NCBI GenBank assembly: GCA_034005815.1 | Contig: JAVETY010000001.1 | Span: 1-58,348, forward strand | Direction of reading: 5' to 3' | Source of the DNA: Sulfurimonadaceae bacterium | GTDB lineage: Bacteria > Campylobacterota > Campylobacteria > Campylobacterales > Sulfurimonadaceae | DNA: 58,348 nucleotides | Shown: positions 93 to 52,564 of the stretch, piece by piece | How positions within the stretch are numbered: position 1 is the first letter of the stretch | Layout: each line of letters begins with the position of its first letter | Position numbers and translations under genes: made by a program | Notes under the pieces: generated by a model | Database searches by the model: none | What the model saw: only the letters and a program-made list of their open reading frames with translations | What the model was told of the DNA's origin: nothing

Positions 93-306
93 TTTCACAT
101 TTTACTCCTTTTACAACATTCTCAAAACAATCACAATCTTTACTTCAATCACAAAATTAATCACTCACTTATCTACCAACTTTTACTATTGTTACTCTTA
201 TCTACTTTTATGCTATTTGCTTTTATGGCATGTTACAAATTTTAGAGTGTATCTCTAATACGAGTATCGTTTATAATGCAGTTTCTCCCAATAAAAACAT
301 AAAATA

Positions 307-315
307 TGCTAAAAT
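307..315 (+). promoter_or_regulatory. Extended -10 promoter TGcTAAAAT, 7 nt upstream of ATG 323 (leaderless geometry)
   Basis: TGn-TAAAAT; no Shine-Dalgarno sequence between the box and the ATG. Confidence 0.6.
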
Positions 316-322
316 TCCACCA

Positions 323-586
323 ATGAAATACAACCTACTTATATCTTTACTATTTTTCATAGCAACTACTCTTATGGCTGTCCATGAGGTGGAACATATT
401 ACTCACGATCATGCTTCGTGTGAAATTTGTATTCTTGTAAATAATTTTGTAAGCCCTGATCTCTCTCTCTCTATTTCAAAGGTTGAAATACTCCATTTTG
501 GCGCTATACTGTGCTATATAACAAAACCTTACTACCACCAACAATCTTCGACGTATGAGCCTCGTGCACCCCCTTCTATCTCCTAA
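323..586 (+). CDS. DUF2946/CruR-like small upstream ORF (hydrophobic N-terminus, His-rich segment, CxxC, C-terminal RAPP)
   Basis: MKYNLLISLLFFIATTLMAVHEVEHITHDHASCEIC...EPRAPPSIS; ATG 323 preferred over 230 because of the promoter position. Confidence 0.8.
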   Translation: MKYNLLISLLFFIATTLMAVHEVEHITHDHASCEICILVNNFVSPDLSLSISKVEILHFGAILCYITKPYYHQQSSTYEPRAPPSIS

Positions 587-638
587 TAGCAAATAAAAAA
601 AACTATACATTTACAAAAATAATAATTAGGAAATTTCT

Positions 639-1919
639 ATGAAAAAAATACTATTATCCTCTGCGCTGTGCGCAACTATTCTGTACGGCGATGCTGCTAA
701 TGTTTTACCAGCTGATAAACGAACTTTTGATCAATCAAAATATATTCCAGATATCTCTGTAATTTTAGATGCTTCTTATGTACAGAGAAATAAATCAAAT
801 GATGTTGTATCAGAGTTAGAGCTTCCAGGTGTAGCACACGGGCTTTTAGGTTCACATGCACATGGTGAGCATAATCACGCATCTTATAATGCAAATCAAG
901 GGTTTAATCTTAACTATGCAGAACTTGTACTCTCAAGTAATGTCGATCCATTTTTAACTATGGATGCTGTATTTCACTTTGATGAACACGGTGTAGAGAT
1001 TGAAGAAGCATACTTTACTACGACAGCACTAGGAAATGGTCTTCGTTTTCGTGGTGGAAAGATGTTTTCAAACTTTGGGTATCTAAACGCACAACACCAC
1101 CACTATTGGGATTTTGGTGACATGCCATTAGTGTATGAGGCATTTTTAGGAATGCACGGTATCAATGAACTAGGCGCCCAAATCCAATGGACAGCGCCAA
1201 CACCTTTTTATCTTATGGCAGGGTTTGAAGTACTTCAAGGAACAAATGAGCAGATGTTTGGAAATGAAACTATGCGCGATGCGAATGACGATGTGTTTGC
1301 AGAAGCAAAAGATGCACCTTCATTATATGTTGGATATATAAAAACATCTGCTGATGTGGGGGATACTACATTTTTTGGAGGGCTCTCTTATGCGCAAGGT
1401 ACTGCTAGAATCGATCATACAGAAGATGAGCATGCTCCACACGCATTTAGTGGAACAAGTAAGCTCTATGGAGCAGATTTTGTAGTGCTTCATGCCCTTG
1501 ATTCTTATAGCTCTATCAAATGGCAAACTGAATGGCTCAGTAGAGATATGGATGGAAAAAGCTATATGCTTGATGACACTACAAGACTTTTAACAGGCTC
1601 TGCTGATACTAGAAAAAAACAAACTGGTCTTTATAGTCAACTTATCTATACATATGATACGAACTGGAAAATGGGTGTGCGATACGACACTATTTATCAA
1701 AACGATGTGAAAATAAATGGTGTAAAAAAATCTTTACCTAATGATTTCCAAAAATACTCTGCAATGGTGGAATACCATACAAGTGAGTTTGCGCGTTTTA
1801 GACTTCAGTATAACCACAACGAATCACTTTATGATGGAAATGATAGACAAAAAACAATCAACACAATCATGCTTCAAGCAAACATTGCTATCGGAGCACA
1901 CGGAGCACATAGTTTCTAA
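639..1919 (+). CDS. His-rich outer-membrane beta-barrel protein, probable Zn/metal uptake porin
   Basis: Signal peptide; HAHGEHNH; GFNLNYAEL and EIEEAYF motifs; C-terminal GAHGAHSF with terminal Phe. Confidence 0.75.
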   Translation: MKKILLSSALCATILYGDAANVLPADKRTFDQSKYIPDISVILDASYVQRNKSNDVVSELELPGVAHGLLGSHAHGEHNHASYNANQGFNLNYAELVLSSNVDPFLTMDAVFHFDEHGVEIEEAYFTTTALGNGLRFRGGKMFSNFGYLNAQHHHYWDFGDMPLVYEAFLGMHGINELGAQIQWTAPTPFYLMAGFEVLQGTNEQMFGNETMRDANDDVFAEAKDAPSLYVGYIKTSADVGDTTFFGGLSYAQGTARIDHTEDEHAPHAFSGTSKLYGADFVVLHALDSYSSIKWQTEWLSRDMDGKSYMLDDTTRLLTGSADTRKKQTGLYSQLIYTYDTNWKMGVRYDTIYQNDVKINGVKKSLPNDFQKYSAMVEYHTSEFARFRLQYNHNESLYDGNDRQKTINTIMLQANIAIGAHGAHSF

Positions 1920-1925
1920 TACATC

Positions 1926-1953
1926 ATGGCATGTCACTTTTTATGGCATGTCA
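1926..1953 (+). repeat. Direct pair of ATGGCATGTCA (1926 and 1943)
   Basis: Read directly from the sequence. Confidence 0.9.
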
Positions 1954-8467: not shown

Positions 8468-8802
8468 GAGAAACATTGGAGCAATTCTTGGCATGTTTAT
8501 ACCAAGAGAGATTTTTTGAAGCACATGAAGTGCTTGAATCTCTCTGGTTTCCTCGAAGGTTTGAGTTATGTGATGAAATAAAACTACTTAAAGGGTTTAT
8601 AAATGCTGCTGTGAGTTTTGAACTTCTCAAAAAAGAGCGTCCCAAGGCAGCCCAAAAAGTATGGCAAAATTATCTCAAATATAAACCTCTTATCTCCTCG
8701 ATAAACTCTGAATATAAAGAGGATTTTTATAAACTTTCATGGCATGTCGAAAAGATACATGCCATGAAAAACTCCCTAGTTTCACACGAAGCTAGGTTAT
8801 AA
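8464..8802 (+). CDS. DUF309 family protein
   Basis: FFEAHEVLESLW and KGFINAAV motifs. Confidence 0.85.
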   Translation: MRETLEQFLACLYQERFFEAHEVLESLWFPRRFELCDEIKLLKGFINAAVSFELLKKERPKAAQKVWQNYLKYKPLISSINSEYKEDFYKLSWHVEKIHAMKNSLVSHEARL

Positions 8803-12497: not shown

Positions 12498-12614
12498 TCT
12501 TATCTCCTCGATAAACTCTGAATATAAAGAGGATTTTTATAAACTTTCATGGCATGTCGAAAAGATACATGCCATGAAAAACTCCCTAGTTTCACACAAA
12601 GCTAGGTTATAATT
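12494..12614 (+). repeat. Direct repeat copy 2 (3' end of the DUF309 gene plus mscS upstream region)
   Basis: Matches 8684-8804 except for one base. Confidence 0.95.
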
Positions 12615-37020: not shown

Positions 37021-37097
<77 letters not shown>

Positions 37098-37894: not shown

Positions 37895-38092
37895 TTATTT
37901 GAGCTCGAGAAGAGCCTTTTTGATTGCTAAAGGTAGAGGGAGTTCTACTTTTTCACACTCCTCTTCGAGACAACAGCTACACGCTAAGCCTGCTTCTGTT
38001 GCATTTTGGATCGCCTCTCTATTATCACCATATTTTGTAACTGCTTCTTTTATGGTTTCATAATATATATCTTCACAATCACACACTAACAT
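37895..38092 (-). CDS. BFD-like [2Fe-2S]-binding protein
   Basis: VCDC...AGLACSCC spacing. Confidence 0.8.
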   Translation of the reverse strand: MLVCDCEDIYYETIKEAVTKYGDNREAIQNATEAGLACSCCLEEECEKVELPLPLAIKKALLELK

Positions 38093-38599: not shown

Positions 38600-38660
38600 G
38601 GCAGTTCCTTTTTATTTTGGTATATGATTATTGTAGCAATAGTTTATAAAAAAACAGTTA

Positions 38661-39872
38661 TTAGCTCTTTTTGGAAGATGTGCCAAGGAGCTCTAAAGAG
38701 ATTTTATAGATTTGCTCCTCTTGGCTCTCTAGAAGATTCCAGCAGTAGTGATTTGCAAGAGTTTTAGCAATTTGTAAACCTTTTCCTGTTGCATCAATAA
38801 GTGTATGTTTCTCTTTTGCGATGTTATTTTGTAAAGAGAAAACACCATTTTCATAGGAGAGCAAAATAGTAGAGTCTTTTTCTGAGTAATTGATACTATT
38901 TTCTATAAGTATTCGTAATACACGCATGATTGCTAATTTTGGAAGTGTCATCGTGATTGTTTTTTTCATAGATATATCAAATGTAAGCTCTTTATGAAGA
39001 GAAAGCGGTCTTAAATCAGCTAAAAGTTCCTCTATCTCTTTATAAAGATTGATTTTATCCATCGCTTCATGGTTTTCTCTGGAGTGAAGAATTTGTGTGA
39101 TTTTTTTAGAAATAGTATCTATCTCTTCTCTTGCTTCTTCTATACTCTCTTTTTTCCAATCACCTTTTTGGTCTGCTAGGTCTATACGAAGTCGTAGTTG
39201 TGCGAGTGGAGTTTTGAGCTCGTGGGTAAGTGCTTTCATAGATTCTTGTTGTGCATTTTGTAAGCGGCTTATCCGTTGTTGTAAGGTTGCTATCGCATCA
39301 CGAAGGGCAACGATTTCTACTCCACCGTGTACCTTATCGGGTACTTTTTCTGGATTATCACATGTGAGACAATGCTCCACAAGTTGGCTTAGTGGTGCAA
39401 AAAGATGGCGTACTAATACATAGATAAGTCCACTAGTAAATAAAAAGCCAAAAACAAAAAATATCCACCGTTTTGTGATGATATCCACAAGTTCAGCATC
39501 TATTTTTTTAGTAGAAGAACTAAGAATAAGAAAGCGTCCATCTTCCAATAGTTTTGATTTTTGAAGTCTTGTTTCTGTAGGCTCTGCTACAGTTGTCATT
39601 ATCTCTATGTTTAAATCATCCAAAAGACCACCATCTAAAAAACCTTGTAATTGAGGATTTTTAGAGATAGTTTTTTTGAGCTCGTCATCCCATTCGTTGA
39701 GGTTATACTCGATAACAATCATATTACTAAGAAGTGAAAGACTGCGGTTAAGACATCGTTGCATATGTTGGTAATAAATATCTGCTAACCCATAACCAAA
39801 GATACCCACAGAAACGATAGTCATTCCCAAAGAGACGGCAAGGATACGACTTTTAAGTGTTTTTAAGAGCAT
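38661..39872 (-). CDS. Sensor histidine kinase (two TM, HAMP-like linker containing CxxC)
   Basis: THELKTPL H-box, ENSINY N-box, GKGL. Confidence 0.92.
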   Translation of the reverse strand: MLLKTLKSRILAVSLGMTIVSVGIFGYGLADIYYQHMQRCLNRSLSLLSNMIVIEYNLNEWDDELKKTISKNPQLQGFLDGGLLDDLNIEIMTTVAEPTETRLQKSKLLEDGRFLILSSSTKKIDAELVDIITKRWIFFVFGFLFTSGLIYVLVRHLFAPLSQLVEHCLTCDNPEKVPDKVHGGVEIVALRDAIATLQQRISRLQNAQQESMKALTHELKTPLAQLRLRIDLADQKGDWKKESIEEAREEIDTISKKITQILHSRENHEAMDKINLYKEIEELLADLRPLSLHKELTFDISMKKTITMTLPKLAIMRVLRILIENSINYSEKDSTILLSYENGVFSLQNNIAKEKHTLIDATGKGLQIAKTLANHYCWNLLESQEEQIYKISLELLGTSSKKS

Positions 39873-40503
39873 AACCCCTGCCTTTCATGGTTTCTATTGG
39901 GTTTATAGGAAGTTTTTTTCTTATGTTTTTGATTATCGCATCGATTGTATTTGAATTTGTGGCACTTGGGTCACTATAGATAGCGTTGGCAATATCATCA
40001 CGCGAGAAAACTTTATCTGGGTGCGAAGCTAAAAAGAAAAGTAAATCATGCTCTTTTTTAGAGAGTGTAAGACTTACGTCTTCGTAGGTGAGTAAACCAT
40101 GTTTTATATTGATATGGAGCCCATCTAGTTCGAGTAGATCAGGTGCGTGTCGTTTGATAAGCACATCAATGCGCATCTTGAGCTCACGTAAATCGTAAGG
40201 TTTCTCTATATAATCATCTGCTCCCGCACTTAAACCTGCTATACGCTCTTCTACCCCTCCATACGCGCTTGCTATTATTATGGCACATGCCGGTTGTGAT
40301 TTTTTAAGTTTAGGGATGAGCAGCATCCCCTCATCACTGCCATCAAGGTCTCTATCGAGTAAAACTGCTTCATAGGTGAAACTCTCTATAAACTCTAGTC
40401 CCTCATCTAAAGAACTTGCCGTATCTATCGTATAAAACTGCTCTAAGGCATCCTTGAGCATAGTTTTCATTTTTTTGTCATCTTCTAGGATTAATATTCT
40501 CAT
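39853..40503 (-). CDS. OmpR-family response regulator
   Basis: LEDD, LLD, GADDYIEKP and IETMKGRGY motifs. Confidence 0.95.
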   Translation of the reverse strand: MRILILEDDKKMKTMLKDALEQFYTIDTASSLDEGLEFIESFTYEAVLLDRDLDGSDEGMLLIPKLKKSQPACAIIIASAYGGVEERIAGLSAGADDYIEKPYDLRELKMRIDVLIKRHAPDLLELDGLHINIKHGLLTYEDVSLTLSKKEHDLLFFLASHPDKVFSRDDIANAIYSDPSATNSNTIDAIIKNIRKKLPINPIETMKGRGYALKNT

Positions 40504-40630
40504 GGCATCTATTGTAATTCATAATGTATAAATTATTGATTTAATCATCAAAAAGTTATCACATTTGTCATGATTTTTTCATTTTGCATCGCTACAATAC
40601 AAAGGTAATCAAAAAAAGGGAGAAATAATT

Positions 40631-42103
40631 ATGAAAAAAAAGATAGCTTTATCTTTATCTGCACTTATAGCAACGGGGTTAGTAGCTGCAGAAGATTTAA
40701 ACTCAATGTTACAAGAGGGGAAATTTGATGGGTATGTAAGACTCCACCATATCAATCCATCTACTTCAGATACAGTAGCAATCACTGGTAGTTTTATCGG
40801 TGGTAAACTTAAATATGAGACAGGTGCTCTGTATGGTTTAAGCCTTGGAACTGCGATGTATACATCACATGATACGGGTCTTACAAAGTGGGATTATCTC
40901 ACAAAAGATGGATATAACCAAGTAGCTGGTGGACTTGCTGGAAATAAAGAGCTACCTGCTGATGGAGGACGTTTTAATAACTATACGACTATTGGAGAAG
41001 CGTATTTAAATTATAAGTATTCTAAAACTTCTGCAAAGATAGGGCGCCAACCATTTGCATCACCTATGACTACAAGCGAAGTAACGATTATTCCAAACCT
41101 TTATGAAGCTGGGGTACTAACATTTAAAGAGGTAGATGGTCTTACTATCCAAGCGGCATATCTTGCAAGAATGATGTATGGAACACGTGCAACAACAGAA
41201 GTGCAACTCATAGGAGATGGTGTATATGGAATTGTATCGGGTGCAGGATTTGTGCACTCAAAACCAACAGAGGGTAAAGAAAGATTTTACACAATGGGTG
41301 AAGCAGCTTTTGGTGCGAATAGTGGTGGAATCAAAGACAATAAGAATGACAATGGTGTAGCGACTCTCAGTGTCGAGTATGATAAAGGTCCAATTAAGCT
41401 TCGTGTGTGGGATTACTATGCGCAAGATATGTTCAATACTGCATACGCTGATATAGATTATAAAATGGATGTAAGTGGAGCGAAACTCTTTTTTAGTGCA
41501 CAAGCATTACATCAAAAAGATATAGGAGACTTTAGTACATCGAATGCTGGAAAAATACTAAGTGCAGACCGTACAGTGACAGATATTTCAGGTAAGAAAA
41601 AACGTTACGACACGAAGCTAGCAACAAATGGTGAGATTGATGCATTTTTCTGGGGTCTCCAAGCAAAAGCGAAGATGGGTGACTTTATGCTCAACGCTGC
41701 ATTTACTCAAAATACAAAAGGACATATCATCGATCCTTGGGGTGGAAACTTTGGATACACAAGTACAATATTTTCGCGTGATGAAAATCGTGCAGAGACT
41801 GATGCGTATAAGCTAGGATTTAACTATGATTTTGGAACGCTTGGAGTCAAAGGTCTGAAATTTATCTATAACTATGGAGCATATAAAAGTGATGTAGAAA
41901 CAACTGCTACATATACGGGTGCTACTAGAAATGCAGGGATGGGCTCACACACTGAAAAATCAGACGAACACGACTTTATGTTCCGTTATGACTCGCCTGA
42001 TGTAAAAGGGTTATGGTTTACACTCTTTCACGTAGAGCGTGATAATGATACAAGAGACTATAAACAATCACATACAAGACTGGTAGCAAATCTAAATTTT
42101 TAA
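40631..42103 (+). CDS. OprD-like outer-membrane porin
   Basis: Signal peptide; GEAYLNY, KIGRQ and PWGG motifs; C-terminal Phe. Confidence 0.82.
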   Translation: MKKKIALSLSALIATGLVAAEDLNSMLQEGKFDGYVRLHHINPSTSDTVAITGSFIGGKLKYETGALYGLSLGTAMYTSHDTGLTKWDYLTKDGYNQVAGGLAGNKELPADGGRFNNYTTIGEAYLNYKYSKTSAKIGRQPFASPMTTSEVTIIPNLYEAGVLTFKEVDGLTIQAAYLARMMYGTRATTEVQLIGDGVYGIVSGAGFVHSKPTEGKERFYTMGEAAFGANSGGIKDNKNDNGVATLSVEYDKGPIKLRVWDYYAQDMFNTAYADIDYKMDVSGAKLFFSAQALHQKDIGDFSTSNAGKILSADRTVTDISGKKKRYDTKLATNGEIDAFFWGLQAKAKMGDFMLNAAFTQNTKGHIIDPWGGNFGYTSTIFSRDENRAETDAYKLGFNYDFGTLGVKGLKFIYNYGAYKSDVETTATYTGATRNAGMGSHTEKSDEHDFMFRYDSPDVKGLWFTLFHVERDNDTRDYKQSHTRLVANLNF

Positions 42104-42112
42104 GGAGAAGAG

Positions 42113-43489
42113 ATGAATCAATCAAGACGTAATATACTCAAAGCTTCGGGACTTAGTCTCGCAGCAATTGCTGTAACAGGATGTGGCGCAGCAGTAGCTG
42201 GTACGCCAGAACCAACAAAGAGTAATGCAGTTGCAACAAAAGCACTTATGCCAAAATCAACTGGTAAAAGAGTTGTAGTAGTTGGTGGTGGATGGGGTGG
42301 TCTTAGTGCTGCTAGAAAGATAAAAGAAAAAGCTCCAGAGAGTGAAGTAATCGTACTAGAAAAAAGAGATGTATTTACATCTTGCCCACTTAGCAATGAG
42401 TGGCTTGTCGATGAAATACCATTAGACTTTTTAACACGTAACTTTTTTACTTCGGCAAAAGAGTATGGATATAAATTTATCCAAACAACAGTTACAGATA
42501 TTGACCGCAACACAAGAAGTGTAGATACTACATGTGGTGCGATTGATTATGACTATCTCGTACTTGCTCCTGGTATTCGTTATGATTATACTGCATGGTT
42601 TGGTGATGATACACAAATGGCTGAGAGATGTCGCCAAGAGTGTCCTCCAGCACTTGTGAGTGGAAGCGAGCATGCAGCTTTGAAGAAAATATTAGAAGAG
42701 TTTGAAGGCGGTAACTTTGTTATCTCTGTTCCAGATGGTGCATATAGATGTCCACCAGCTCCATATGAGCGAGCGGCACTTGTGGCAAACTACTTTAGAA
42801 AAAACAATATCAATGGGAAGGTGATTATCCTCGATCCTAAAGAAAAACCAGCTCCAAAAGGGCCAGGATTTATGGCAGCCTACAAAGAGCTTTATGCTGA
42901 TATCGTAGAGTACCACCCACACTCTCTTGTAAAAGGTGTGAATTTAGATACAAAAGAGTTACGTGTAGATGTAACAGATAAAGATCTCAATACAAAAACT
43001 ATCACAATGAAGTTTGATGCTGCAAACCTAATCCCAACCAATGCTGCTTCAGAACTTATCGCAAAAGCGGGAGTTTCTATGGGTAAAGCAGGTTGGGGAC
43101 AAATGAAAGCTCCAACGTTTCAAACACTTAAAGACGAGCGCGTGTTTGTTATAGGTGACTCTGTTGGCGGATATCCATATCCAAAAAGTGGCTCTATCGC
43201 AAATGGTCAAGGTCATATAGTGGCTGATCAAATTGCAAATATCATCAAAGGGCACAAAGCATTAACAGATGTAGCACTTCCTGTAAATACATGTTATTCG
43301 ATGCTTAATGATACGGAAGGGATTTCAGTTTCTGCTACATTCTCCCTAGTAGATGACAAGGATGCAAAAGGCAATCCTATCAAAAAAATAAAAGGAGATA
43401 TGAAAGCTAACAATCAACGTTCAACTGCTCTAGGCAAAGGAACACACAACTGGTACCAAGGTATGATGACGGATATCTTCGGTTCATAA
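42113..43489 (+). CDS. fccB: Flavocytochrome c sulfide dehydrogenase flavoprotein (FccB/SoxF-like), Tat lipoprotein
   Basis: SRRNILK Tat motif, lipobox AVTGC, VVGGGWGG, SCPLSN, YRCPPAPYERA, PKSG and NTCYS. Confidence 0.9.
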   Translation: MNQSRRNILKASGLSLAAIAVTGCGAAVAGTPEPTKSNAVATKALMPKSTGKRVVVVGGGWGGLSAARKIKEKAPESEVIVLEKRDVFTSCPLSNEWLVDEIPLDFLTRNFFTSAKEYGYKFIQTTVTDIDRNTRSVDTTCGAIDYDYLVLAPGIRYDYTAWFGDDTQMAERCRQECPPALVSGSEHAALKKILEEFEGGNFVISVPDGAYRCPPAPYERAALVANYFRKNNINGKVIILDPKEKPAPKGPGFMAAYKELYADIVEYHPHSLVKGVNLDTKELRVDVTDKDLNTKTITMKFDAANLIPTNAASELIAKAGVSMGKAGWGQMKAPTFQTLKDERVFVIGDSVGGYPYPKSGSIANGQGHIVADQIANIIKGHKALTDVALPVNTCYSMLNDTEGISVSATFSLVDDKDAKGNPIKKIKGDMKANNQRSTALGKGTHNWYQGMMTDIFGS

Positions 43490-43535
43490 GCCTTCAACAA
43501 AATTTTTCAATTCGATTCCCCAGATTTTATTTAAC

Positions 43536-43561
43536 AACAAGAGGCATTACGTCCTCTTGTT
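43536..43561 (+). terminator. Terminator-like hairpin after fccB
   Basis: AACAAGAGG/CCTCTTGTT stem. Confidence 0.65.
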
Positions 43562-43606
43562 CTCCTGAATTTATCACTATTTCGCACCGTTTCGCTACAA
43601 TATCGC

Positions 43607-46405
43607 ATGGCAAAGAAAAATAAAAAAATAACAAAAATCAATGAAAAAATTAGACTTTATTTCGATGGTGATCCTTTTGATGTGGGGATTGAAAATCTAA
43701 GTTCACAAAAGCTAAGTGAGATGATGCATTCTCTTGGCATTATGGATATAGAACACAATAAAAAAGCACTTGTAAAACTACTTCGTCAACTCTGGTCGGA
43801 TGGTGATATAGACCAACGACAAGATATTTTAAATTTTTTGAAAAATGATGGAATGGTTTATAAATCAAACATCTCAAAAGAAGTAAATATTGATAAAGAG
43901 CAAAAGATAGATGAACTTTTAGAGGAGCTCGGAGCAACGAGGCATGAGAGTACACTCATCCACGAAGCATTTTCTGATGTGCGTGCAAAAAAAATAACGA
44001 TAGAAAAAATAGAATCGAAACTTGCACACATAAGGTTTCAAGCGAAAAAGATAGAACTTGAAAAACTGCTGAGTGGCGCATTTGATTTAGATGATAGTTT
44101 TGAGTTTAACGCATCTTTTCATTACACACTTTATGGGGAAATATTTCATAAGATATTAACTCTTAGTACAAAACCGTATAGCTATGAGTTTTTACAAACC
44201 ACGTCTATAGAAGAATTAAAAATACGTTTAGAAGATGACATGCTAGTAGAGATTGCACAAAAGCAAAAAAACATAGAACTCTTTATACAAACACTCCAAG
44301 ATCCACATCCACATCTTTCTCACAAAGAGATTATCCACGCATTGCGCTCTGCACCACCAAAAGCAAAATATAAATACCCTTTTCTAAGACCAACTCTCAT
44401 AGAAATAATCATCGCAAAAGAGCTTCAAATCAATAAGCTAGAATTACACGAACAAGAGCTTTTAATTTCACTCGATGATACGATAATTTTGCCTTATTCT
44501 GATATGAAATTTGATTATGAGCTAGAGTTACATCTAGAGCTTAATGCACTTTTAGAAGAGATTTGGAAAGGGGAAGCGCTTGATTTTAAAGGGGTACTCG
44601 AAGCTGGTAAAAAAGAGCATAGAGATGTTTTCTTAACAGATTTAGATGCTCTTGTTTCACAATGTGGTGAGTATGCAACTTTGCTTCATTTTACAACACA
44701 AGAACTTTATGCAAGAGTGTATGAGATTTTACTCGAATTCTTACCCCAAAATCTTCATATCAGCTCAAAAACTTCAGGGAAAGTTTTAAAAATCTTTATA
44801 GATACTGTCCATGAAAAGCTGATTAAAAAACAAAGAGAAACACTTTTAGCGCGTACTATCCGTGATTTTAAAAACCTCTTTCCACTTGCACGTAATTTAA
44901 GACGTAAACTAATTCTGCATATAGGACCAACCAATAGTGGAAAAACCTACCAAGCGATGCAAAAACTTCAAAATGCAGATACAGGTTACTACCTTGCACC
45001 TTTGCGTCTTCTGGCATTAGAGGGGTTTGAGACGATGCGTGAAAATGGTGTTGGTGTATCCCTTATCACAGGAGAAGAACAGATACTTGATGAGGATGCA
45101 ACACATATAAGCTCTACGATAGAGATGCTTAGTTTTGATGTGGATGTGGATGTGTGTGTTATTGATGAGGTGCAGATGATTGATGACAGAGACCGTGGTT
45201 GGGCTTGGGCTAATGCCATCATCGGAGCACCCGCAAAAGAGGTGATTATGACAGGCTCATCCAATGCCAAGGGTGCAATTATAGCTTTAGCTGAGTATTT
45301 AGGTGAAGAGCTTGAAATTATAGAGTTTGAGCGCATGAATCCACTGCATCTTTTAGAACACCACACAAATCCAAAAGATGTAGAAGCGGCAACTGCTATC
45401 ATTGCTTTTAGTCGTAAGGATGTTCTACGTCTTAAACAAAACTTTTCGCAATTTTTTGATGTAAGTGTAGTATATGGAAACCTCTCTCCAGAAGTACGCC
45501 GTGAAGAAGCGCGCCGTTTTCGAGCAAAAGAAACGCAGATACTTATAGCCACCGACGCGATTGCGATGGGGATGAACCTACCTATAAAAACGATTTTATT
45601 TTCCAAAGCAGATAAGTTTGATGGAATTACTCAAAGAAATCTTTTCCCAACAGAGGTGCATCAAATAGCAGGGCGAGCAGGGCGTTATGGGCTTAATGAA
45701 GAGGGATTTGTAGGAGCTCTAAGTAGTGAAGTACTAAGCATAGTCAAAAAGGTTTACACAAAAGAAGACCGCATCATCGAGACACCTTTTAAGGTGATGG
45801 CAAATCTAGAACATATCAAACTTGTAAACTCTATTTTGGAAGAGAAATCACTCTATCTTATCCTCAAATTTTTTGTTGAAAATATGGAGTTTAGTGGGCC
45901 ATTTCGTGCAACAAACCTTGATGATATGCAAGAAGCTGCGCAAATTGTGGATAACTACGATATTGATATCGCGATGAAATACCATCTTGCATGTGCACCG
46001 CTCACACTTAAATCTCCTTATATTATAGGAGCGTTTGAGAGCTATATTGCAGCATTAGAGAAAAAAGAGTTAGTTCCATTTATGCCTGTGATGCTCAGTT
46101 CAGAGTATGCACATACCGCAGATGAGCTTTTGCGTGCAGAGGATATGGTTAAAGAGATATCACTTTATTTGTGGTTGAGCTATAGATTTAAAGAGTATTT
46201 TTTAGATGCAGAGCGAGCAAGAGAACATAGAGGAGTCTTAAATAAGTTTATAGAAAGCTCTTTACAACAAAGTCATTTCGTACCACGTTGTCGTATTTGT
46301 GAGGCTACACTTCCACTTAATTCTAAATATGCTATTTGTCAAAATTGTTTTAAAAAGAATTATACAGGGAAACAAGCAAGAACACCTAGGATACAAAGGG
46401 GATAA
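43607..46405 (+). CDS. SUV3-family RNA helicase
   Basis: HIGPTNSGKT, PLRLLA, IDEVQM, ATDAIAMGMN, QIAGRAGRYG and YLWLSYRF motifs. Confidence 0.93.
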   Translation: MAKKNKKITKINEKIRLYFDGDPFDVGIENLSSQKLSEMMHSLGIMDIEHNKKALVKLLRQLWSDGDIDQRQDILNFLKNDGMVYKSNISKEVNIDKEQKIDELLEELGATRHESTLIHEAFSDVRAKKITIEKIESKLAHIRFQAKKIELEKLLSGAFDLDDSFEFNASFHYTLYGEIFHKILTLSTKPYSYEFLQTTSIEELKIRLEDDMLVEIAQKQKNIELFIQTLQDPHPHLSHKEIIHALRSAPPKAKYKYPFLRPTLIEIIIAKELQINKLELHEQELLISLDDTIILPYSDMKFDYELELHLELNALLEEIWKGEALDFKGVLEAGKKEHRDVFLTDLDALVSQCGEYATLLHFTTQELYARVYEILLEFLPQNLHISSKTSGKVLKIFIDTVHEKLIKKQRETLLARTIRDFKNLFPLARNLRRKLILHIGPTNSGKTYQAMQKLQNADTGYYLAPLRLLALEGFETMRENGVGVSLITGEEQILDEDATHISSTIEMLSFDVDVDVCVIDEVQMIDDRDRGWAWANAIIGAPAKEVIMTGSSNAKGAIIALAEYLGEELEIIEFERMNPLHLLEHHTNPKDVEAATAIIAFSRKDVLRLKQNFSQFFDVSVVYGNLSPEVRREEARRFRAKETQILIATDAIAMGMNLPIKTILFSKADKFDGITQRNLFPTEVHQIAGRAGRYGLNEEGFVGALSSEVLSIVKKVYTKEDRIIETPFKVMANLEHIKLVNSILEEKSLYLILKFFVENMEFSGPFRATNLDDMQEAAQIVDNYDIDIAMKYHLACAPLTLKSPYIIGAFESYIAALEKKELVPFMPVMLSSEYAHTADELLRAEDMVKEISLYLWLSYRFKEYFLDAERAREHRGVLNKFIESSLQQSHFVPRCRICEATLPLNSKYAICQNCFKKNYTGKQARTPRIQRG

Positions 46406-46427
46406 ACCCTTTGATACTTTAAGCTTT

Positions 46428-48017
46428 TTAGCTTTTAAACTCTTCAATCGTCGCTTGAAGTGAAGATGCAACTTGGACTAATTGTTTGAGGTCATCTTCT
46501 ATATTTTCTACGCTGATTCCATTTTCATTGGAGAGCTCTTCGATAGTTTTTATATCTTTGATAATGCTTTGAAGTTGTTTTGACATCTCTTCATTATCCT
46601 CACGTGATTGGTTTGCTATCGTAGAAGTTGATTCTATCGCCTCTGTAGTGGAGATGATTTTAATCTCTACTTCATGCGAAACTGCAGTGAGGTTTACTAT
46701 ATTTTTTGCATTTTCACTCATTTTATCACTTACATCGTTGATAGATTGTACGATTGTGCTTACGCTTATATCTATCTCTGTTAGGCTTTTTTGTGTGCGT
46801 TCCGCTAGTTTTCTTACTTCATCAGCAACTACCGCAAATCCACGCCCTTGCTCACCTGCGCGCGCTGCTTCGATGGCAGCATTGAGTGCGAGAAGATTTG
46901 TTTGGTCTGCTATATCTTTGATGATATCTAAAACATGTTTGACTTGGTCTGCATCACCTCTAAGTTCTAGAAGACGGTGGGAAAGTTCATTTTCTGTTTC
47001 TACAAACTTATCAACTTCATCACTCAAAGTAGCAAGAGTTGTACGTGCATTTGCAAGTTCTTTATTGGCATGTTGTGCTTTTTCTTGTGTTTGTTGTGTA
47101 GTTTCAATACTTTGCGCTAAAAGATGTACTATCGATGCACTTTTATCTGTCGTAGCAGAAACTATTGTTTTTTCTTGCTGTGTGCCTTTACGGATTGTAT
47201 GGCTTGAACGCTCAATCTCCACTGCGATTTTAGAGTTTTGTATCCCTAACTCTTTTATATCATTGACTGTGGTTTGTATCATCTCGATAAAAAGGTTCAT
47301 CTCTTTTGCGGTTGCGCCAAACTCATTTTTGCTTGTAGCATTAAGGCGTTTTGTAAGGTCTTTATCACCACTTACAAGGTCTGCTACACGCGTTTTAAGA
47401 GTAAGGAGTGGGGTGAAAATTTGTGCGTTAAAAAACACAGTTGCTGCAAAGGTAAAAATCAGTGAAAATAGAAGAAGCGTTGCAACAAGTTTAAATTCTG
47501 TTGCTGCTATTTTTTTATCATTTTCATTGAGAGAGATCGTTAAATCAACTGCACCGAGGACATTTCCTGCTGATGCATTGTAATGACATGCCAAACATCT
47601 ATCTTCTGCGATAACTGGTTTTATCATTCGTATAGTGTGGTCTACTTTATCTTTGTTTTCAATAACTTTTGCAGTTTTATTGAGAAGTACATCACGGATC
47701 AAAGGATCGCTTGTAAAGCTTTCATTTGGAGTGAAAACTTCGATGACCTCTTTTGATTTTGCGATTTCTAGATGAGCGATACCATCGATTGCTTTTGCTT
47801 GTTGGTATGCAAATGTAATAGCATCTGGATCTCCAAGCATCATGCTTGTAGTCATAGTTTGAAAGATAGATTCACTCAGCATTTTAAGCGATTGTTGTGT
47901 TGCGTCATTAGAAAGGTCTTTAAGAGTTGTTGAGAGGTGTAGTGTCATACCTATAAGAGTAAAAGCACTCACAGCTATTACTGCCGATATAACTTTTGAT
48001 TTGACCGTCGTAAACAT
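46428..48017 (-). CDS. Methyl-accepting chemotaxis protein with periplasmic CxxCH
   Basis: [37 protein letters not shown]; CLACH between the TMs. Confidence 0.95.
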
Positions 48018-48177
48018 TAGTGACTCCCAAGAAATAAATTTTTAAAATAGACTACATTGTACCCCAAAAGTGTTGCAATGAAAATATATTAGAGGATTGT
48101 TCTTAAACAATTTTGTTAAGTGTGAAGATTTATAGAAATTTTAAACATTTAAAAATATTTAGTTATGTCATCTCATA

Positions 48178-49569
48178 TTAGTTTGAATATTTGATATGAT
48201 CGAGGAGCATGCCCATATCAAGATGCTCTTCAACATGCGCTGTAAACTCTCTAATAGCATTTTGTTTATACTCTTTAAAAACATACCCCTTATATTCGGG
48301 ATGTAGTGCATGAAAGAGTTCATATCGAAAGAGGTCATTTTCAAAAAAGCCATGTAAGAAAGTACCATAAAAGTTCTTTCCTTTTTTAGCTCGTTTTTTT
48401 GAAACACCATTGTGTATTTCATACCCATCAACCATTGCATCTAAAAGGCGGTAAGTCCCTTTGGTGACAATTTTTTCTTTCTCAAACACGACGTCGCCTT
48501 TGACACGACCGAACCCTTCAGTTTTTACGACAGAAGACTCCACATGCCATGGATCAAGTATATGCTCGTGCATCATCTCGTACCCACCACAAATAGCGAG
48601 AATATACTTCTCTTTAGAAAGCAAGATAGGCTCAAATCCACGCTCTTTGAGCCATGCTAAATCATCTACAACCCGCTTGCTTCCTGGAACTATCACGACG
48701 TCACAGCTTTGTGCTTCGCTAGGATGGGTGATAAAACTCACTTCTAATTCTTCATCTGCGATAAGAGGTTCAAAGTCGTTAAAATTGCTAATATGGGGAA
48801 GTTTGATAACACCTACCCGTAAAAGTGCTTTGGAGAGATTTTGTGTGTAATTTGCAAGTGACTGGATATCTTCAAAGCCTAAGTTAAATGGTTTATAGGG
48901 GATTACTCCGAGCACTTTGAGCCCAAAACGCTCTTCGATAATCGCTACTCCATCATCAAAAAGACTTATATCTCCGCGAAATTTATTGATAATCACACCA
49001 ATAACATTTTTCTTTAGTTTTTTTGGCAAGAGCGCGTACACACCAAAGATAGAAGCAAAAACCCCGCCACGCTCTATATCTGCAACTAAAATAATCTTTG
49101 TATTAAATTCTTGTGCTACATAAATATTTGAGAGATCTTTCTCCATAATATTAAGCTCTACAGGACTTCCTGCACCTTCAGCGATGATACAGTCATATTT
49201 TTTTTGTAGTTTTTTGAATGATTTTTTCACATAAGGTTTGAGTAAATCTATATCGTCGTAGTACTGTTGGAGCTCTTTTTCCCCTACATCTTTACCATTT
49301 ACTATAAGGTGTGCAGCATTTTTATGACCTGATTTTATAAGAATAGGATTCATATGTATGCTTGTTTTTATCCCTATAGCTTCAGCCGCAAAATGTTGCG
49401 CGATAGCTATTTCACCAAAATCATCCGCTACAGCAGAATTATTGGAGATATTTTGAGCTTTAAAGGGTGCGACACGAATGCCGTGCTGATGGACTAAGTA
49501 GGTAAGAGCAAAGGCAAGAGTCGATTTACCAGCATCGCTGCCAGTTCCAAAAATGCTAAGGGAATTCAT
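48178..49569 (-). CDS. cobQ: Cobyric acid synthase
   Basis: GTGSDAGKS, PFKAQN, EGAGSP, DIERGG, ISNFND, ICGGY and GYEIH motifs. Confidence 0.95.
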   Translation of the reverse strand: MNSLSIFGTGSDAGKSTLAFALTYLVHQHGIRVAPFKAQNISNNSAVADDFGEIAIAQHFAAEAIGIKTSIHMNPILIKSGHKNAAHLIVNGKDVGEKELQQYYDDIDLLKPYVKKSFKKLQKKYDCIIAEGAGSPVELNIMEKDLSNIYVAQEFNTKIILVADIERGGVFASIFGVYALLPKKLKKNVIGVIINKFRGDISLFDDGVAIIEERFGLKVLGVIPYKPFNLGFEDIQSLANYTQNLSKALLRVGVIKLPHISNFNDFEPLIADEELEVSFITHPSEAQSCDVVIVPGSKRVVDDLAWLKERGFEPILLSKEKYILAICGGYEMMHEHILDPWHVESSVVKTEGFGRVKGDVVFEKEKIVTKGTYRLLDAMVDGYEIHNGVSKKRAKKGKNFYGTFLHGFFENDLFRYELFHALHPEYKGYVFKEYKQNAIREFTAHVEEHLDMGMLLDHIKYSN

Positions 49570-49699
49570 AGGTCCAATTGTACACATTACAAATATAATT
49601 TATGTTGAATTGAAATATAATTAAATTTCATAAGTTTTTTCTATTATATTAAGTATATTTTTGTTAAAGTAATCAACTTTTATTTTTACAGGGGGAAAT

Positions 49700-50215
49700 A
49701 TGAGATTTTTTTTATCGTTTGTAGCTCTTTTAGTCATGGTATCTGGGCTTATGGCAAATGGATCTGATGAAGGCGTCCAAGCGCACAAGGAACACGATTT
49801 TACAGAAATAGCATCGAATTATGACAAAGCATGTCAAGAGAACGATTATAAGGGATGTACGGAGTTAGGATTTATCTACTTTTCTGGATTTGGATTAAAA
49901 AAAGATTCAAATAAAGCATTTGGGCTTTTAGAAAAAGCGTGCAATGGAGGAAATGTTATAGGATGCCGTGGTTTAGCTAGGATGTATGATTTAGGTGAGG
50001 GAACAAAGAAAAATAGTCAAAAAGCGATAGAACTCTACACAAAAGCGTGTCAATCTGGTGACACTATAGGGTGTATGAATCTAGGTATCATCTATGAATA
50101 TGGGGAAAACGTACAACAAGATACAGAAAAAGCCAAAGAGTATTACTCAAAAGCATGCGATAATGGGGATAAACAAGGATGTGAGCTTTTAGCCGAACTT
50201 ACAGGCAACAGATGA
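49700..50215 (+). CDS. Secreted Sel1-repeat (Hcp-like cysteine-rich) protein
   Basis: Signal peptide; repeated KAC..G...GC..LG..Y..G. Confidence 0.9.
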   Translation: MRFFLSFVALLVMVSGLMANGSDEGVQAHKEHDFTEIASNYDKACQENDYKGCTELGFIYFSGFGLKKDSNKAFGLLEKACNGGNVIGCRGLARMYDLGEGTKKNSQKAIELYTKACQSGDTIGCMNLGIIYEYGENVQQDTEKAKEYYSKACDNGDKQGCELLAELTGNR

Positions 50216-50508
50216 GAATATTTGTAATCGTTGCATTAGCTATGATGGCAATGTTTTTGAATGCAGATGATTTTGAAGTAGGAAAAAAAGCGTACCAAAC
50301 GAGTGATTACGCAAAAGCCAAAAACCTTTTTGAAGTGACATGCCATCAAAACAACAATCCACAAGCATGTGCGATTTTGGCAGTGATGTATGTCAATGGT
50401 CAAGGGGTTAAAAAAGATATTAATAAAGCAAAAGAGCTGTATAAAAAGTCGTGTGATAATAACTTTGAGCTAGGATGCCAAGGATACAATGAGCTGAGTA
50501 GAAACTAA
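50212..50508 (+). CDS. Short secreted Sel1-repeat protein
   Basis: Signal peptide; ACAILAVMYVNGQGV and KKSCD...GC. Confidence 0.85.
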   Translation: MRIFVIVALAMMAMFLNADDFEVGKKAYQTSDYAKAKNLFEVTCHQNNNPQACAILAVMYVNGQGVKKDINKAKELYKKSCDNNFELGCQGYNELSRN

Positions 50509-50945
50509 TCTTTCTTTGTACTGCTAAAACACTTTTGCATTATTAGTTTCCAATCTAAATCAAAATATTTACTTACAAATGCTTTCGTGTGTGGAACGCT
50601 ACATTTTGCGCAGTCTTGATGGATGGCATCACCATAGACTCCAGCCACTCCATCTTTTGCTTCAATCGCGCAAAAACTATACTTCGTTTTGCCATCCACT
50701 ATTTCTAAGCCAGTATCATCAAAACGAAAGTGCGGACAAGCACAAAGATAACAGTTGAGATATTGTCTGTCATGGCACTTTTTATTTTCTGCGTAGAGTG
50801 GACAAAAATCATTTTCATGCTCCACCATATTTTCAAATACAAAGTACTCTATAATCTCCTCTTTATCCATCCCACTCGCTAGAAGTTTCTCTACGATATT
50901 TCTATGCTTTATGGCATGTGAAGCGATCCAAGAGGCATAACTCAT
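50505..50945 (-). CDS. Cysteine-rich small-domain (zf-like) protein
   Basis: CPLY..KCH...NCYLCACP...C...DCAKC.VPH. Confidence 0.7.
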   Translation of the reverse strand: MSYASWIASHAIKHRNIVEKLLASGMDKEEIIEYFVFENMVEHENDFCPLYAENKKCHDRQYLNCYLCACPHFRFDDTGLEIVDGKTKYSFCAIEAKDGVAGVYGDAIHQDCAKCSVPHTKAFVSKYFDLDWKLIMQKCFSSTKKD

Positions 50946-52564
50946 TGCATTATCTTCTTTTTGTGCTCGGCAAGTCTGTCATACATGTTAAGGATATTTT
51001 TATATTCTTGATGAAGTGTTATATCTACAAAACTCTTTTTATTATCTAATATGAGAAGTGTTTTTTCTAACATCTCCTGACCAAAAAGAGACGCAAACGC
51101 TAGTTTGAAATCTTCCAAAGATTCATTTATCTCTTGCATCAGGATAAGCTCGCCTAAAAGTATGGCATGTGGCTGTTTGGAGTATGGCAAAAGCTCAAGA
51201 GCTTCTTCGTACATCTCTAGCTTGAGATAGGTATCGATTTTAAAGTCACAAAGTGTGAAGTTGTGAGCAAATACTACGCCGATATATTTTTGCATATCGA
51301 GTGAGTCTTCGAGATTTTCTACCATAGTGAGGATATCTTCTGTATCGTATTTGTGAGGATTCAAAACCATATCACGAATCTCTTTACCACGGTTTTTATT
51401 ATTATAGATAAGGTCATTGATAGGATATACTTCAGAGAAACCTGGCACGATCATTTGGCATGTATAAAACCCTAGATAATCATACTCTCGGATATATATG
51501 TTTTTATTCATGGCATGTAAGATATTTACAAGATACTCGTACTCATCATCGATAGAGCTGCCAGTATAGGTATAAGAGGTAAACTCAAAACTTTTTTGTG
51601 CAGATAAAAATCCAAGCCCCATAATCCCATTGGAATCTACAAAATGTGACTCTATATTAAAGCTATCTGCTACGATACTCATATCAAAAGTAGGGACCTC
51701 AAAGGTGTCAAGATTGTCAAGATTGCGTCCTTGCATCAGCTCTGTCATAGTACGTTCAAGGGAGACTTCTAAGATAGGATGTGCACCAAAAGAGACAAAT
51801 AGAGTCGCATTTTTTGGATTGATAAGAGAGATAGCCGTTACAGGAAATTTGCCACCCAAAGAGGCATCTAAAACCTCTATAATATAGCCATGAGAGCGAA
51901 GTGTACATAGATCTTCATAGACTTTTTTGTATTTTTTTAAGTCCGCCTCAGCAAATGGAGGGAGTGCGTAGTTATTTTTGATAATTTCTATCTTGGTGTA
52001 ACGTTCTATGATTTCACTAAGCGCTTGTACTTGCGCCTCTTTTGGAGTATTGCCTGTTGCAAGACCATTGCTTACATAAAGATTTGTAAGGATATTGATA
52101 GGAAAATATGCTTGTGTACTCTCACTTAGCTTGGTAAATGGCAAACATACGATTGCATCATCTTTGTCACTATTAAAATCTACTAAATCCTCTAGTGCCA
52201 ACTCTTGGTGTGGATCATAAATCTCTAAAAGTTCTGGGCTCAGATATCCACCATCCAAATCAAATGCTACTTCATCCGGATAATATGCACGTGAGGGTAG
52301 ATAGAAATCTATAAAAAAAGTATTGCTCTGCAACCTCTCTATATATTCCCCCAAAGCACTCGCTATAGAAGCCTCACTCAGCGTGCCTTTACCATTTGTA
52401 TAGATAAGACTCGGTGCTTCTGTTGAGGCTAAGTTATGAGAAAAACAGTGCTCTAACGGATGCTTTTGTGTAGAAAAAGTAGTGTCATAACCTGCGTTTG
52501 TAAGGGCTTTTTGCATAGAGGCGATACTTGTTTGCAGTGGAGATGCTTTAGATGGGAAGTTCAT
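50942..52564 (-). CDS. ycaO: YcaO family protein (E. coli YcaO-like subtype)
   Basis: TNGKG, ASALGEYIER, SNGLATGNT, SEIIER, SFGAHP, ERTMTELMQGR and VPGFSEVYP motifs. Confidence 0.9.
   Translation of the reverse strand: MNFPSKASPLQTSIASMQKALTNAGYDTTFSTQKHPLEHCFSHNLASTEAPSLIYTNGKGTLSEASIASALGEYIERLQSNTFFIDFYLPSRAYYPDEVAFDLDGGYLSPELLEIYDPHQELALEDLVDFNSDKDDAIVCLPFTKLSESTQAYFPINILTNLYVSNGLATGNTPKEAQVQALSEIIERYTKIEIIKNNYALPPFAEADLKKYKKVYEDLCTLRSHGYIIEVLDASLGGKFPVTAISLINPKNATLFVSFGAHPILEVSLERTMTELMQGRNLDNLDTFEVPTFDMSIVADSFNIESHFVDSNGIMGLGFLSAQKSFEFTSYTYTGSSIDDEYEYLVNILHAMNKNIYIREYDYLGFYTCQMIVPGFSEVYPINDLIYNNKNRGKEIRDMVLNPHKYDTEDILTMVENLEDSLDMQKYIGVVFAHNFTLCDFKIDTYLKLEMYEEALELLPYSKQPHAILLGELILMQEINESLEDFKLAFASLFGQEMLEKTLLILDNKKSFVDITLHQEYKNILNMYDRLAEHKKKIMQ

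What the first reader, a model, noticed from the sequence alone, without database searches (positions are those of the whole stretch)
225..51518. Highly iterated 9-mer ATGGCATGT: candidate new DNA uptake sequence in Campylobacterota
Seen: exact ATGGCATGT on + at 225, 1926, 1943, 8739, 12549, 18146, 22327, 23016, 31677, 34730, 50911, 51162 and 51510. Its reverse complement ACATGCCAT is at 1120, 8757, 12567, 21460, 33421, 34747, 48542 and 50338. That is at least 21 copies, two of which come from the 121-bp duplication. At least 11 more sites keep the 8-mer TGGCATGT/ACATGCCA (8490, 14604, 16142, 17279, 20362, 28781, 32532, 36432, 47066, 47586, 51456). A hand estimate with independent bases at an assumed ~35% GC gives about 0.4 expected 9-mers for the window, so enrichment is tens-fold. 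Copies lie on both strands, in several reading frames within genes (HA, WH, GM, MP, TCH peptides), between genes, and as inverted pairs at gene ends. I saw none in the mobile element after 54.3 kb, though that is only 4 kb. Established: this distribution is characteristic of the Neisseria DUS (GCCGTCTGAA) and the Pasteurellaceae USS (AAGTGCGGT), whereas C. jejuni is known to select DNA by methylated RAATTY. Inference: a lineage-specific sequence-selective DNA uptake system, or else a HIP1-like iterated motif or a nucleoid-organising protein site. The CATG core could also tie it to a methyltransferase.
Basis: partly seen in the sequence, partly recalled or inferred. Interest (0 to 1): 0.92.

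Follow-up and report, generated by a model that had tools for sequence, protein, structure and literature searches.

The report
Sulfurimonas uptake-like DNA words with dialects
A short DNA word (core TGGCATGT) is written about once every 2 kb through this Sulfurimonas genome and other lineages of the genus carry related but different words, which is the pattern of the self-recognition tags that likely let bacteria take up DNA of their own kind, so far described in only two other bacterial families.

Summary
In detail: 21 ATGGCATGT in the window against 0.51 expected. The genome has 904 TGGCATGT, consensus YWTGGCATGT. It is used at 697 of 1,196 codon positions that allow it, against 89 expected. 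It shows no replichore bias, forms hairpins just after stop codons and is missing from low-GC islands. It is confined to part of Sulfurimonas: 22 of 194 genus genomes, 0 of 280 other genomes of the order. Other lineages carry related words, largely one per genome: YGGCATGTGGA, TTACATGTAA, YKGCGTTT, SGGATGT. No shared type II methyltransferase was found. The genome encodes a Cts/Com uptake apparatus. Best reading: a DNA-uptake-sequence system with dialects (about 0.58). Uptake is untested. Against it: none of the 11 kinds of pilus protein tested tracks the dialects; a genome lacking the pilus keeps a weaker word; some genomes with pilus genes show no word. This scan noted similar words earlier in other phyla, not in Sulfurimonas.

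The parts
225..51518 (.). Dispersed array of the word YWTGRCATGT: 32 TGGCATGT/ACATGCCA and 6 TGACATGT/ACATGTCA matches, both strands, in and between genes
225..233 (+). Single copy downstream of the 5S rRNA gene (1-92)
1926..1953 (+). Two copies of ATGGCATGTCA in direct orientation just after the gene 639-1919; predicted to fold as an RNA hairpin with two G-U pairs (-13.0 kcal/mol with 12-base flanks)
8739..8765 (.). Inverted pair with an extended stem (predicted -18.5 kcal/mol with flanks); first copy of a duplication of about 120 bp
12549..12575 (.). Same inverted pair; second copy of the duplication
34730..34755 (.). Inverted pair filling the 31-bp gap between the convergent genes 33713-34723 (+) and 34755-35546 (-); predicted hairpin, likely a terminator
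36992..37001 (.). Palindromic form TGACATGTCA between the tRNA-Ala and tRNA-Gly genes
1120..1128 (-). Copy inside the gene 639-1919
14604..20369 (.). In-gene copies at 14604, 16142, 16385 (TGAC form), 17279, 18146, 20362
21460..33429 (.). Copies at 21460, 22327, 23016, 28781, 31450 (TGAC form), 31677, 32532, 33421
36432..51518 (.). Copies at 36432, 37165 and 38350 (TGAC form), 47066, 47586, 48542, 50338, 50911, 51162, 51456, 51510
54300..58348 (.). Integrated element without the word (Rep3-type initiator gene 54586-55458); not part of the system, a weak negative control (about 2 copies expected)

Best explanation
The word YWTGGCATGT is likely a DNA uptake sequence, a self tag that the Cts/Com type IV pilus machinery of this Sulfurimonas lineage would bind on outside DNA. 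Step 1 (shown): the genome encodes secretin, CtsP/X/E/F-like proteins, ComEC, a ComEA-like protein, a prepilin peptidase, a PilY1-like protein and several pilins, one with a predicted FimU/GspH/FimT fold and one at the position of C. jejuni cj0683. Step 2 (inferred): a surface component binds the word in either orientation, so tagged fragments enter more often. Step 3 (inferred): repeated replacement by homologous DNA fixes point changes toward the word wherever they are tolerated. This would give the near saturation of permissive codons, the sites at fast-changing positions, the hairpin pairs at gene ends and the absence from newly arrived islands, all of which are shown.
For: Enrichment 24-39-fold over an order-3 model, 6-fold over synonymous and 19-fold over codon-order shuffles. 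697 of 1,196 permissive codon positions are used against 89 expected, in all six frames. No strand bias: 421 against 483 by contig GC skew; heterogeneity chi-square 66 on 56 df, p=0.17. 77 close pairs, 65 intergenic, 75 folding at -8 kcal/mol or lower; 296 site-stop distances within 50 bp after stop codons against about 20 per 25-bp bin upstream. 142 sites in 19.5 kb of convergent gaps against 43 in 40.6 kb of divergent gaps. No TGGCATGT in the glycosylation-type contigs C63 (17 kb, 8.1 expected) and C156 (8 kb, 4.0 expected). Sites differ from non-A orthologues at 2.8-3.6 of 8 bases against 2.0-2.35 for control 8-mers, but 6 of 10 are identical in A-type loci against 8% of controls. Related words are largely exclusive across the genus; B-type loci also put their word in hairpins at gene ends. 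Competence genes; FimT-class fold. These features match those given for DUS/USS in bioRxiv 10.1101/2025.10.24.684340 (abstract, introduction, results part 1 read). In G013, which lacks secretin and a CtsE-size ATPase, the D word is at 0.22/kb against 0.46-0.68/kb in three other D-type samples, as decay would predict; one case only.
Against: Uptake was not tested. None of the 11 kinds of pilus protein aligned (FimT-like pilin, three core minor pilins, priA-adjacent pilin, upstream major pilins, PilY1-like protein, secretin, CtsP, CtsX, a 180-aa Cts protein) groups by dialect. The pilins are mosaic and differ between close kin with the same word, for example G063 and G073. A second FimT-like paralogue was not found in several word-rich genomes such as G088, G102 and G121. 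G013 still carries its word 7-fold over the null without the pilus. G066 has 527 TACATGTA although ctsP is deleted and the PilY1-like gene is short. G017, G072 and G130 have pilins and comEC, yet no clearly iterated word in 35-100 kb samples. Dialect C is a strict palindrome without enriched one-sided forms and is hardly enriched between genes in G061, which suits a dimeric protein or HIP1-like word as well. Spacing is not more even than random (variance/mean 1.17). G198 is moderately raised for both the B and C words.
Confidence: 0.58

Rival explanations
1. The word is read inside the cell by an unmethylated-DNA-binding protein: a nucleoid or transcription-associated protein, or a factor acting after uptake that protects or helps to recombine tagged DNA. 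Selection or biased conversion then spreads the sites.
For: No pilus component tracks the dialects. The word persists in G013 and G066, where the pilus is lost or damaged. Dialect C is a perfect palindrome, as for a homodimer.
Against: The gene-end pairs form stems that are kept with G-U pairs, which points to RNA hairpins built from the word, not to a fixed protein spacing; spacings run from 12 to 24 bp in all orientations. No candidate protein was found or tested. A step after uptake would still be a transformation bias.
Confidence: 0.27
2. A methylation-linked word: HIP1-like, spread by methyl-directed repair, or a counterpart of the methylated RAATTY signal of C. jejuni with a CATG core.
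For: Dialects A, B and C contain CATG and C is a palindrome. C. jejuni selects DNA by methylated RAATTY (PMC10046745, passages). HIP words go with orphan methyltransferases (PMC4390886, start of abstract in the listing).
Against: No PF02086, PF01555 or PF00145 methyltransferase in G000 (91% complete) or in the closed genome G061. G000 has one PF02384 match, a type I M-like gene; G061 has three. CATG itself is at expectation (5,092 against 5,084). Dialects D and E lack CATG.
Confidence: 0.07
3. A chromosome-architecture or recombination signal of the Chi, KOPS, matS or parS type.
For: Short, over-represented, and asymmetric in dialects A, B, D and E.
Against: No bias to the G-rich strand; both strands are used about equally in 16 loci of dialects A, B, D and E. 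Dialect C is even across 20 samples round the closed chromosome G061 (chi-square 14.3 on 19 df). No closed A-type genome was available, so the ori/ter test was on the sister word only.
Confidence: 0.03
4. Remains of a REP or MITE spread by a transposase, or merely a favoured terminator stem.
For: 104 CGTC-type REP units exist in the genome and 20 of 98 palindromic forms lie within 80 bp of one.
Against: Only 18 of 904 TGGCATGT lie near a REP. 702 lie inside reading frames without gaps or conserved flanks.
Confidence: 0.03

Closest known systems
DNA uptake sequence (DUS) of Neisseriaceae and its dialects, read by the minor pilin ComP
   Same: Short word in hundreds to thousands of copies on both strands; in several reading frames; inverted pairs at gene ends; absent from recently acquired DNA; lineage-specific dialects around a shared core (bioRxiv 10.1101/2025.10.24.684340).
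   Different: Unrelated sequence (ATGT or GCGT core, not CTG); lower density than the top Neisseriaceae counts quoted there; many genomes of the genus show none of the words tested; one dialect is a full palindrome; no pilin that follows the dialect; function untested.
Uptake signal sequence (USS) of Pasteurellaceae, predicted receptor PpdA/ComN
   Same: A core intolerant of mismatches with looser flanks (the USS core behaviour is recalled); terminator pairs; a conserved minor pilin is present (FimU Z 11.5, FimT Z 7.2).
   Different: No extended A/T-rich tail; unrelated word; the FimT-class pilin here does not co-vary with the word, whereas PpdA is reported to (PMC12616744, abstract).
Methylated RAATTY selection in Campylobacter jejuni (Cts uptake system, Cj0683)
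   Same: Same order and the same type of uptake machinery; a pilin gene sits before priA as cj0683 does (PMC10046745, passages). The words share an R-x-A-T-x-Y shape (my reading; a weak, degenerate match).
   Different: No PF01555-family methyltransferase found in G000 or G061; the RAATTY 6-mers are at 0.8-1.25 of expectation in G000; the word is longer and strongly enriched.
HIP1 and other highly iterated palindromes of cyanobacteria
   Same: An 8-base word scattered through genes; dialect C is a palindrome.
   Different: No cognate methyltransferase found; dialects A, B, D and E are asymmetric; strong use in gene-end hairpins; no regular spacing.

Membership tests
DUS/USS-type uptake sequence | Short word in hundreds to thousands of copies, far over codon-aware nulls | tested here: met
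   904 copies; 702 in genes against 117.5 and 36.6; 697 of 1,196 permissive positions
DUS/USS-type uptake sequence | Both strands, no replichore polarity or regional clustering | tested here: met
   for this word; evenness round a closed chromosome shown for the sister word only
DUS/USS-type uptake sequence | Inverted pairs forming terminator-like hairpins after genes | tested here: met
   65 of 77 close pairs intergenic, 75 fold; peak after stop codons; termination itself not tested
DUS/USS-type uptake sequence | Depleted in recently acquired DNA | tested here: met
   0 in C63 (8.1 expected), 0 in C156 (4.0), 2 in C82 (7.2); low GC explains part of it
DUS/USS-type uptake sequence | Lineage-specific dialects | tested here: met
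DUS/USS-type uptake sequence | Competence machinery present in carriers | tested here: inconclusive
   Present in G000 and most carriers; lost or damaged in the carriers G013 and G066
DUS/USS-type uptake sequence | A pilus-borne receptor whose specificity follows the dialect | tested here: inconclusive
   None of 11 kinds of protein groups by dialect; a few-residue determinant or an untested protein is not excluded
DUS/USS-type uptake sequence | The word raises DNA uptake or transformation | not testable with these tools
   needs an experiment
Neisseriaceae DUS or Pasteurellaceae USS proper | DUS word with CTG core or USS word, in those families | tested here: not met
   Word and host differ; no ComP family hit among seven pilin-like proteins scanned
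HIP1-type methyltransferase-linked palindrome | Orphan methyltransferase for a sub-sequence in all carriers | tested here: not met
   No PF02086, PF01555, PF00145 in G000 or G061; other families and methylomes not examined
Chi / KOPS | Polarity with replication direction | tested here: not met
   421 against 483; p=0.17 for heterogeneity
matS / parS | Few sites clustered at ter or ori | tested here: not met
   904 sites; per-5-kb variance/mean 1.17; sister word even round G061
REP / MITE | Longer conserved element, mainly intergenic | tested here: not met
   No conservation beyond about 11 bases; 702 of 904 in genes

The most novel reading that the evidence does not exclude
Sulfurimonas has an independent, methylation-free DNA uptake sequence system with at least five dialects, including a fully palindromic one, read by a receptor that is none of the pilins tested. 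It would be a sister solution to the methylated RAATTY selection of C. jejuni on the same Cts machine, caught gaining, switching and losing specificity within one genus.
Probability: 0.4. Interest if true: 0.9.

Novelty: new variant of a known kind. Interest (0 to 1): 0.76.

Why it matters
A 2025 survey names two families with sequence-tag uptake, Neisseriaceae and Pasteurellaceae (bioRxiv 10.1101/2025.10.24.684340). A third case in Campylobacterota, beside the methylation-based choice of C. jejuni on a related machine, would let one ask how DNA self-recognition arises and changes. The genus holds strong, weak, switched and word-free lineages and at least one that lost the pilus, which is a natural experiment on whether uptake bias alone builds such genomes. 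In practice the words predict which DNA each Sulfurimonas lineage should accept, and they are a lineage marker for binning and for spotting foreign islands.

Tried and rejected
Receptor search by tree and by column against dialect: FimT-like pilin (69 genomes), three core minor pilins and the PilY1-like C-terminus (31), full PilY1-like protein (19), priA-adjacent and upstream major pilins (31), secretin, CtsP, CtsX and the 180-aa protein (28-30). None separates the dialects beyond what kinship explains. ComEA, DprA and AddAB were not compared across genomes. The aclAB tree looked discordant and was replaced by a 14-gene tree of 42 genomes. Provisional labels included G087 as E; one search showed no enrichment there (207 against 227) and the label was dropped from then on. 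The F word (TAGATGCT) is only about 3-5-fold over an order-3 model in samples and was not confirmed genome-wide. The G075 word (CTGCGTGAG) rests on 27 kb only. A scan of viral contigs for the hairpin gave 113 stretches (80 with flanks); none showed a host-like density of the word beyond the hairpin, apart from one 625-base locus with 7 copies that was not followed. Literature: no paper in the library holds TGGCATGT, ACATGCCA, ATGGCATGT or TGACATGTCA as whole words, or 'DNA uptake sequence' with Sulfurimonas, or the term sets; TACATGTA appears only in oomycete and fungal promoter papers (listing); one search listed four papers, none on this topic by title or abstract start. PMC3497702 does not mention Sulfurimonas. 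The library lacks most subscription papers, and supplements were not read. Sequence search of solved structures with the pilin profile matched only the N-terminal helix. Rfam found only 5S rRNA and two tRNAs in the window.
Full report
Observation. The 9-mer ATGGCATGT occurs 21 times in the window at the positions given, against 0.51 in shuffles. In the whole assembly (G000, 1,909,862 bases, 198 contigs, 35.3% GC, 91% complete) it occurs 495 times against 12.8 by an order-3 Markov model. The top 8-mer of the genome is TGGCATGT (904 against 37.8); TGACATGT follows (340 against 24.7), 196 of these from 98 palindromes TGACATGTCA. Single changes are enriched at the flanks but not in the CATG core. 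The 5' flank is Y then W even inside genes (79% and 92%), so the word is YWTGGCATGT with a G/A variant.

Host and range. Relatives of the window's glmM gene at 74-85% identity are mostly records titled Sulfurimonas or Sulfurimonadaceae. In the 194 genomes of the genus, 22 have at least about 100 TGGCATGT per Mb (up to 1,820 copies), four more have 50-75 per Mb, and the rest are near background. Of 280 genomes of the order outside the genus, none is enriched in this way; the highest has 140 in 2.7 Mb.

Behaviour in genes. With my own gene calls (1,904 genes), 702 copies lie in coding sequence against 117.5 after synonymous shuffling and 36.6 after codon-order shuffling. Where the amino acids allow the word, it is used at 697 of 1,196 positions against 89 expected from codon usage; all six frames are used, and frames needing Trp are the rarest. 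In aligned orthologues, the sites differ from genomes of other dialects at 2.8-3.6 of 8 bases, more than control 8-mers (2.0-2.35), with few gaps (4 against 360 aligned site comparisons). In two A-type loci 6 of 10 sites are identical against 8% of controls. So the sites arose by substitution at tolerant positions and are kept within the lineage (inference).

Behaviour between genes. 142 sites lie in 19.5 kb of convergent gaps, 43 in 40.6 kb of divergent gaps. Site counts jump from about 20 per 25-bp bin before stop codons to 193 and 103 in the two bins after them; start codons show no peak. Of 77 pairs within 30 bp, 65 are intergenic and 75 fold at -8 kcal/mol or lower; no shuffled control was run for the folding energy. 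Bases inside the loop next to the arms pair in 66% and 76% of 29 cases, against about 27% by chance. Direct pairs also fold, because the word is nearly palindromic and G-U pairs fill the mismatches, as at 1926-1953. These are likely terminators built from the word (inference).

Position on the chromosome. There is no preference for the G-rich strand (421 against 483) and no significant strand heterogeneity among 56 contigs (p=0.17). Density per 5 kb is close to random (variance/mean 1.17). The word is absent from two low-GC sugar-modification contigs, sparse in a contig with a reverse-transcriptase-like gene and toxin-antitoxin-like genes (gene names from my reading of the sequences), and absent from the rpoC-rpsL-rpsG-fusA contig. 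recG carries 7 sites against 0.8 expected; a bias to repair genes was not tested as a class.

Dialects. De novo 8-mer counts in 80 glmM loci and 60 pilin-adjacent loci showed other iterated words, which I then counted genome-wide. B, YGGCATGTGGA: 469-1,570 GCATGTGG in 11 of 138 genomes and 320-368 in four more; G000 has 119 and G203 224. C, (T)TACATGTA(A): 413-850 in 12 of 138 and 101-320 in 16 more; G000 has 39, control 38. D, YKGCGTTT: 3,485, 1,409 and 915 in G091, G127 and G114 against controls of 530, 158 and 89; not raised in G075 or G000. E, SGGATGT: 1,584 against 403 in G109; not raised in G087, G072, G077 or G000. Strong carriers have one word each; G198 is moderately raised for B and C. 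On a 14-gene tree and a secretin tree the words follow kinship broadly, with switches: E is sister to A and D sits beside one C clade. In the closed genome G061 the C word is even over 20 samples round the chromosome (chi-square 14.3 on 19 df) and its one-sided forms are not enriched. B loci put their word at gene ends (2.2 against 0.33 per kb); G061 does so hardly at all (0.37 against 0.29).

Methylation. G000 and the closed G061 have no PF02086, PF01555 or PF00145 match; G016 has no PF00145 match; G203, G191 and G088 have assorted ones. All five genomes tested have PF02384 matches; G000's one is a type I M-like gene. CATG is at expectation in genes. A shared methyltransferase is therefore not the cause as far as these families go.

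Uptake machinery. G000 encodes ComEC, a secretin in a ctsD-P-X-E-F-like operon, a ComEA-like protein, a prepilin peptidase and six full pilin-like genes with the methylation motif; names other than the Pfam hits are my reading of sequence and gene order. One pilin lies before priA, where cj0683, needed for DNA uptake in C. jejuni, lies (PMC10046745, passages). Another, found in 161 of 194 genomes at a loose threshold, gives a confident model (pLDDT 92) that matches FimU (Z 11.5, rmsd 2.5, 123 aligned), EpsH, GspH and the DNA-binding FimT (Z 7.2, rmsd 3.9, 116 aligned); a shared fold shows no function. comEC was found in 87 of 88 genomes, so it does not separate carriers from non-carriers.

The pilins and the PilY1-like protein are highly variable and mosaic. 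G063 and G073 are close kin with the same word (718 and 682 copies) but have unlike FimT-class pilins; G121 has a B word and an A-like pilin domain. No alignment column in the six pilin or adhesin sets separates B from C cleanly in all genomes (best 0.90 in one core pilin), and the best columns in the Cts proteins follow kinship.

Natural experiments. G013 (99% complete) has no secretin, no full-size assembly ATPase and no pilin cluster in the 145 kb sampled. It groups with G127 and G061 and carries the D word at 0.22 per kb against 0.46-0.68 in three other D samples, 7-fold over the null against 11-12-fold. This fits decay after loss but also shows that the word can be present without the pilus. 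In the weak-B group comEC was not found in G201 and is cut to 255 aa in G122, while G019 and G192 have full frames. G066 keeps 527 C words with ctsP deleted. G017, G072 and G130 have machinery genes and no clear word in 35-100 kb.

Comparison and verdict. The word works like DUS/USS in the genomic respects tested, apart from even spacing, and is not a member of either family by sequence or host. The survey of those systems names only Neisseriaceae and Pasteurellaceae (bioRxiv 10.1101/2025.10.24.684340; abstract, introduction and first part of results read). My searches found no description of these words, within a library that lacks most subscription papers. Earlier notes of this scan describe similar words in Verrucomicrobiota, Bacteroidota, Methylotenera-like and other genomes, none in Sulfurimonas; they are unchecked and lend no support, though one prompted the inside-the-cell rival. 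I put uptake sequence at 0.58, an inside reader at 0.27, methylation at 0.07 and the rest at 0.06.

Noticed in passing
G000 genome-wide; none in the window: 104 REP-like palindromic units of two related forms (GTCATTCCG...CGGAATC and GTCATCCTGAA...TTCAGGATC), often in convergent gaps beside the palindromic word. G000:C82:3481-4272 looks like a REP-associated tyrosine transposase (family name recalled, not scanned).
   Followed up: partly
window 54290-58348: Integrated element: begins at a tRNA/tmRNA-like 3' end (GGTTCAATTCC...CCACCA near 54310-54335, not called by ARAGORN or Rfam), then a Rep3_C initiator gene (54586-55458, Pfam E 1e-10) and a frame with a Walker A motif near 57240 that resembles a conjugative coupling protein (my reading).
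   Followed up: partly
window about 8685-8805 and 12495-12615: Duplication of about 120 bp carrying the hairpin, each copy upstream of an MscS-like gene; the first gene is a shortened version of the second.
   Followed up: no
L346-L365, L149-L208, L252-L281: Pilins and the 1,200-2,000-aa PilY1-like protein are extremely variable and mosaic between close relatives (25-60% identity for most pairs), as expected under phage or surface selection with frequent exchange; the G000 protein has no Pfam hit.
   Followed up: partly
L399 (G066), L352 (G122), L402-L409 (G013): Decay of competence genes in single lineages: ctsP deleted and fused to ctsX in G066; comEC cut to 255 aa in G122; pilus genes not found in G013.
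   Followed up: partly
G000:C59:14935-16725: recG holds 7 copies of the word against 0.8 expected, the strongest gene-level excess in the genome.
   Followed up: no
L168, L181, L183, L185, L194 and L418-L421: A weaker candidate word TAGATGCT(A), about 3-5-fold over an order-3 model, in one clade (G036, G067, G159, G160, G202); may be a sixth dialect or a codon effect.
   Followed up: partly
L187 (G075); L206 (G158); L172 (G012): CTGCGTGAG iterated in G075 (14 CTCACGCA in 27 kb); dense local repeats with GCAATGAC (39 copies in 20 kb) in G158 and ATTGCGAG in G012, probably other REP types.
   Followed up: no
G000 and G061 samples: CTCTTTTG/CAAAAGAG is 2.4-fold over an order-3 model in both; CTCTTTTGC is 13 leading against 37 lagging in G061, possibly a codon effect of gene direction.
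   Followed up: partly
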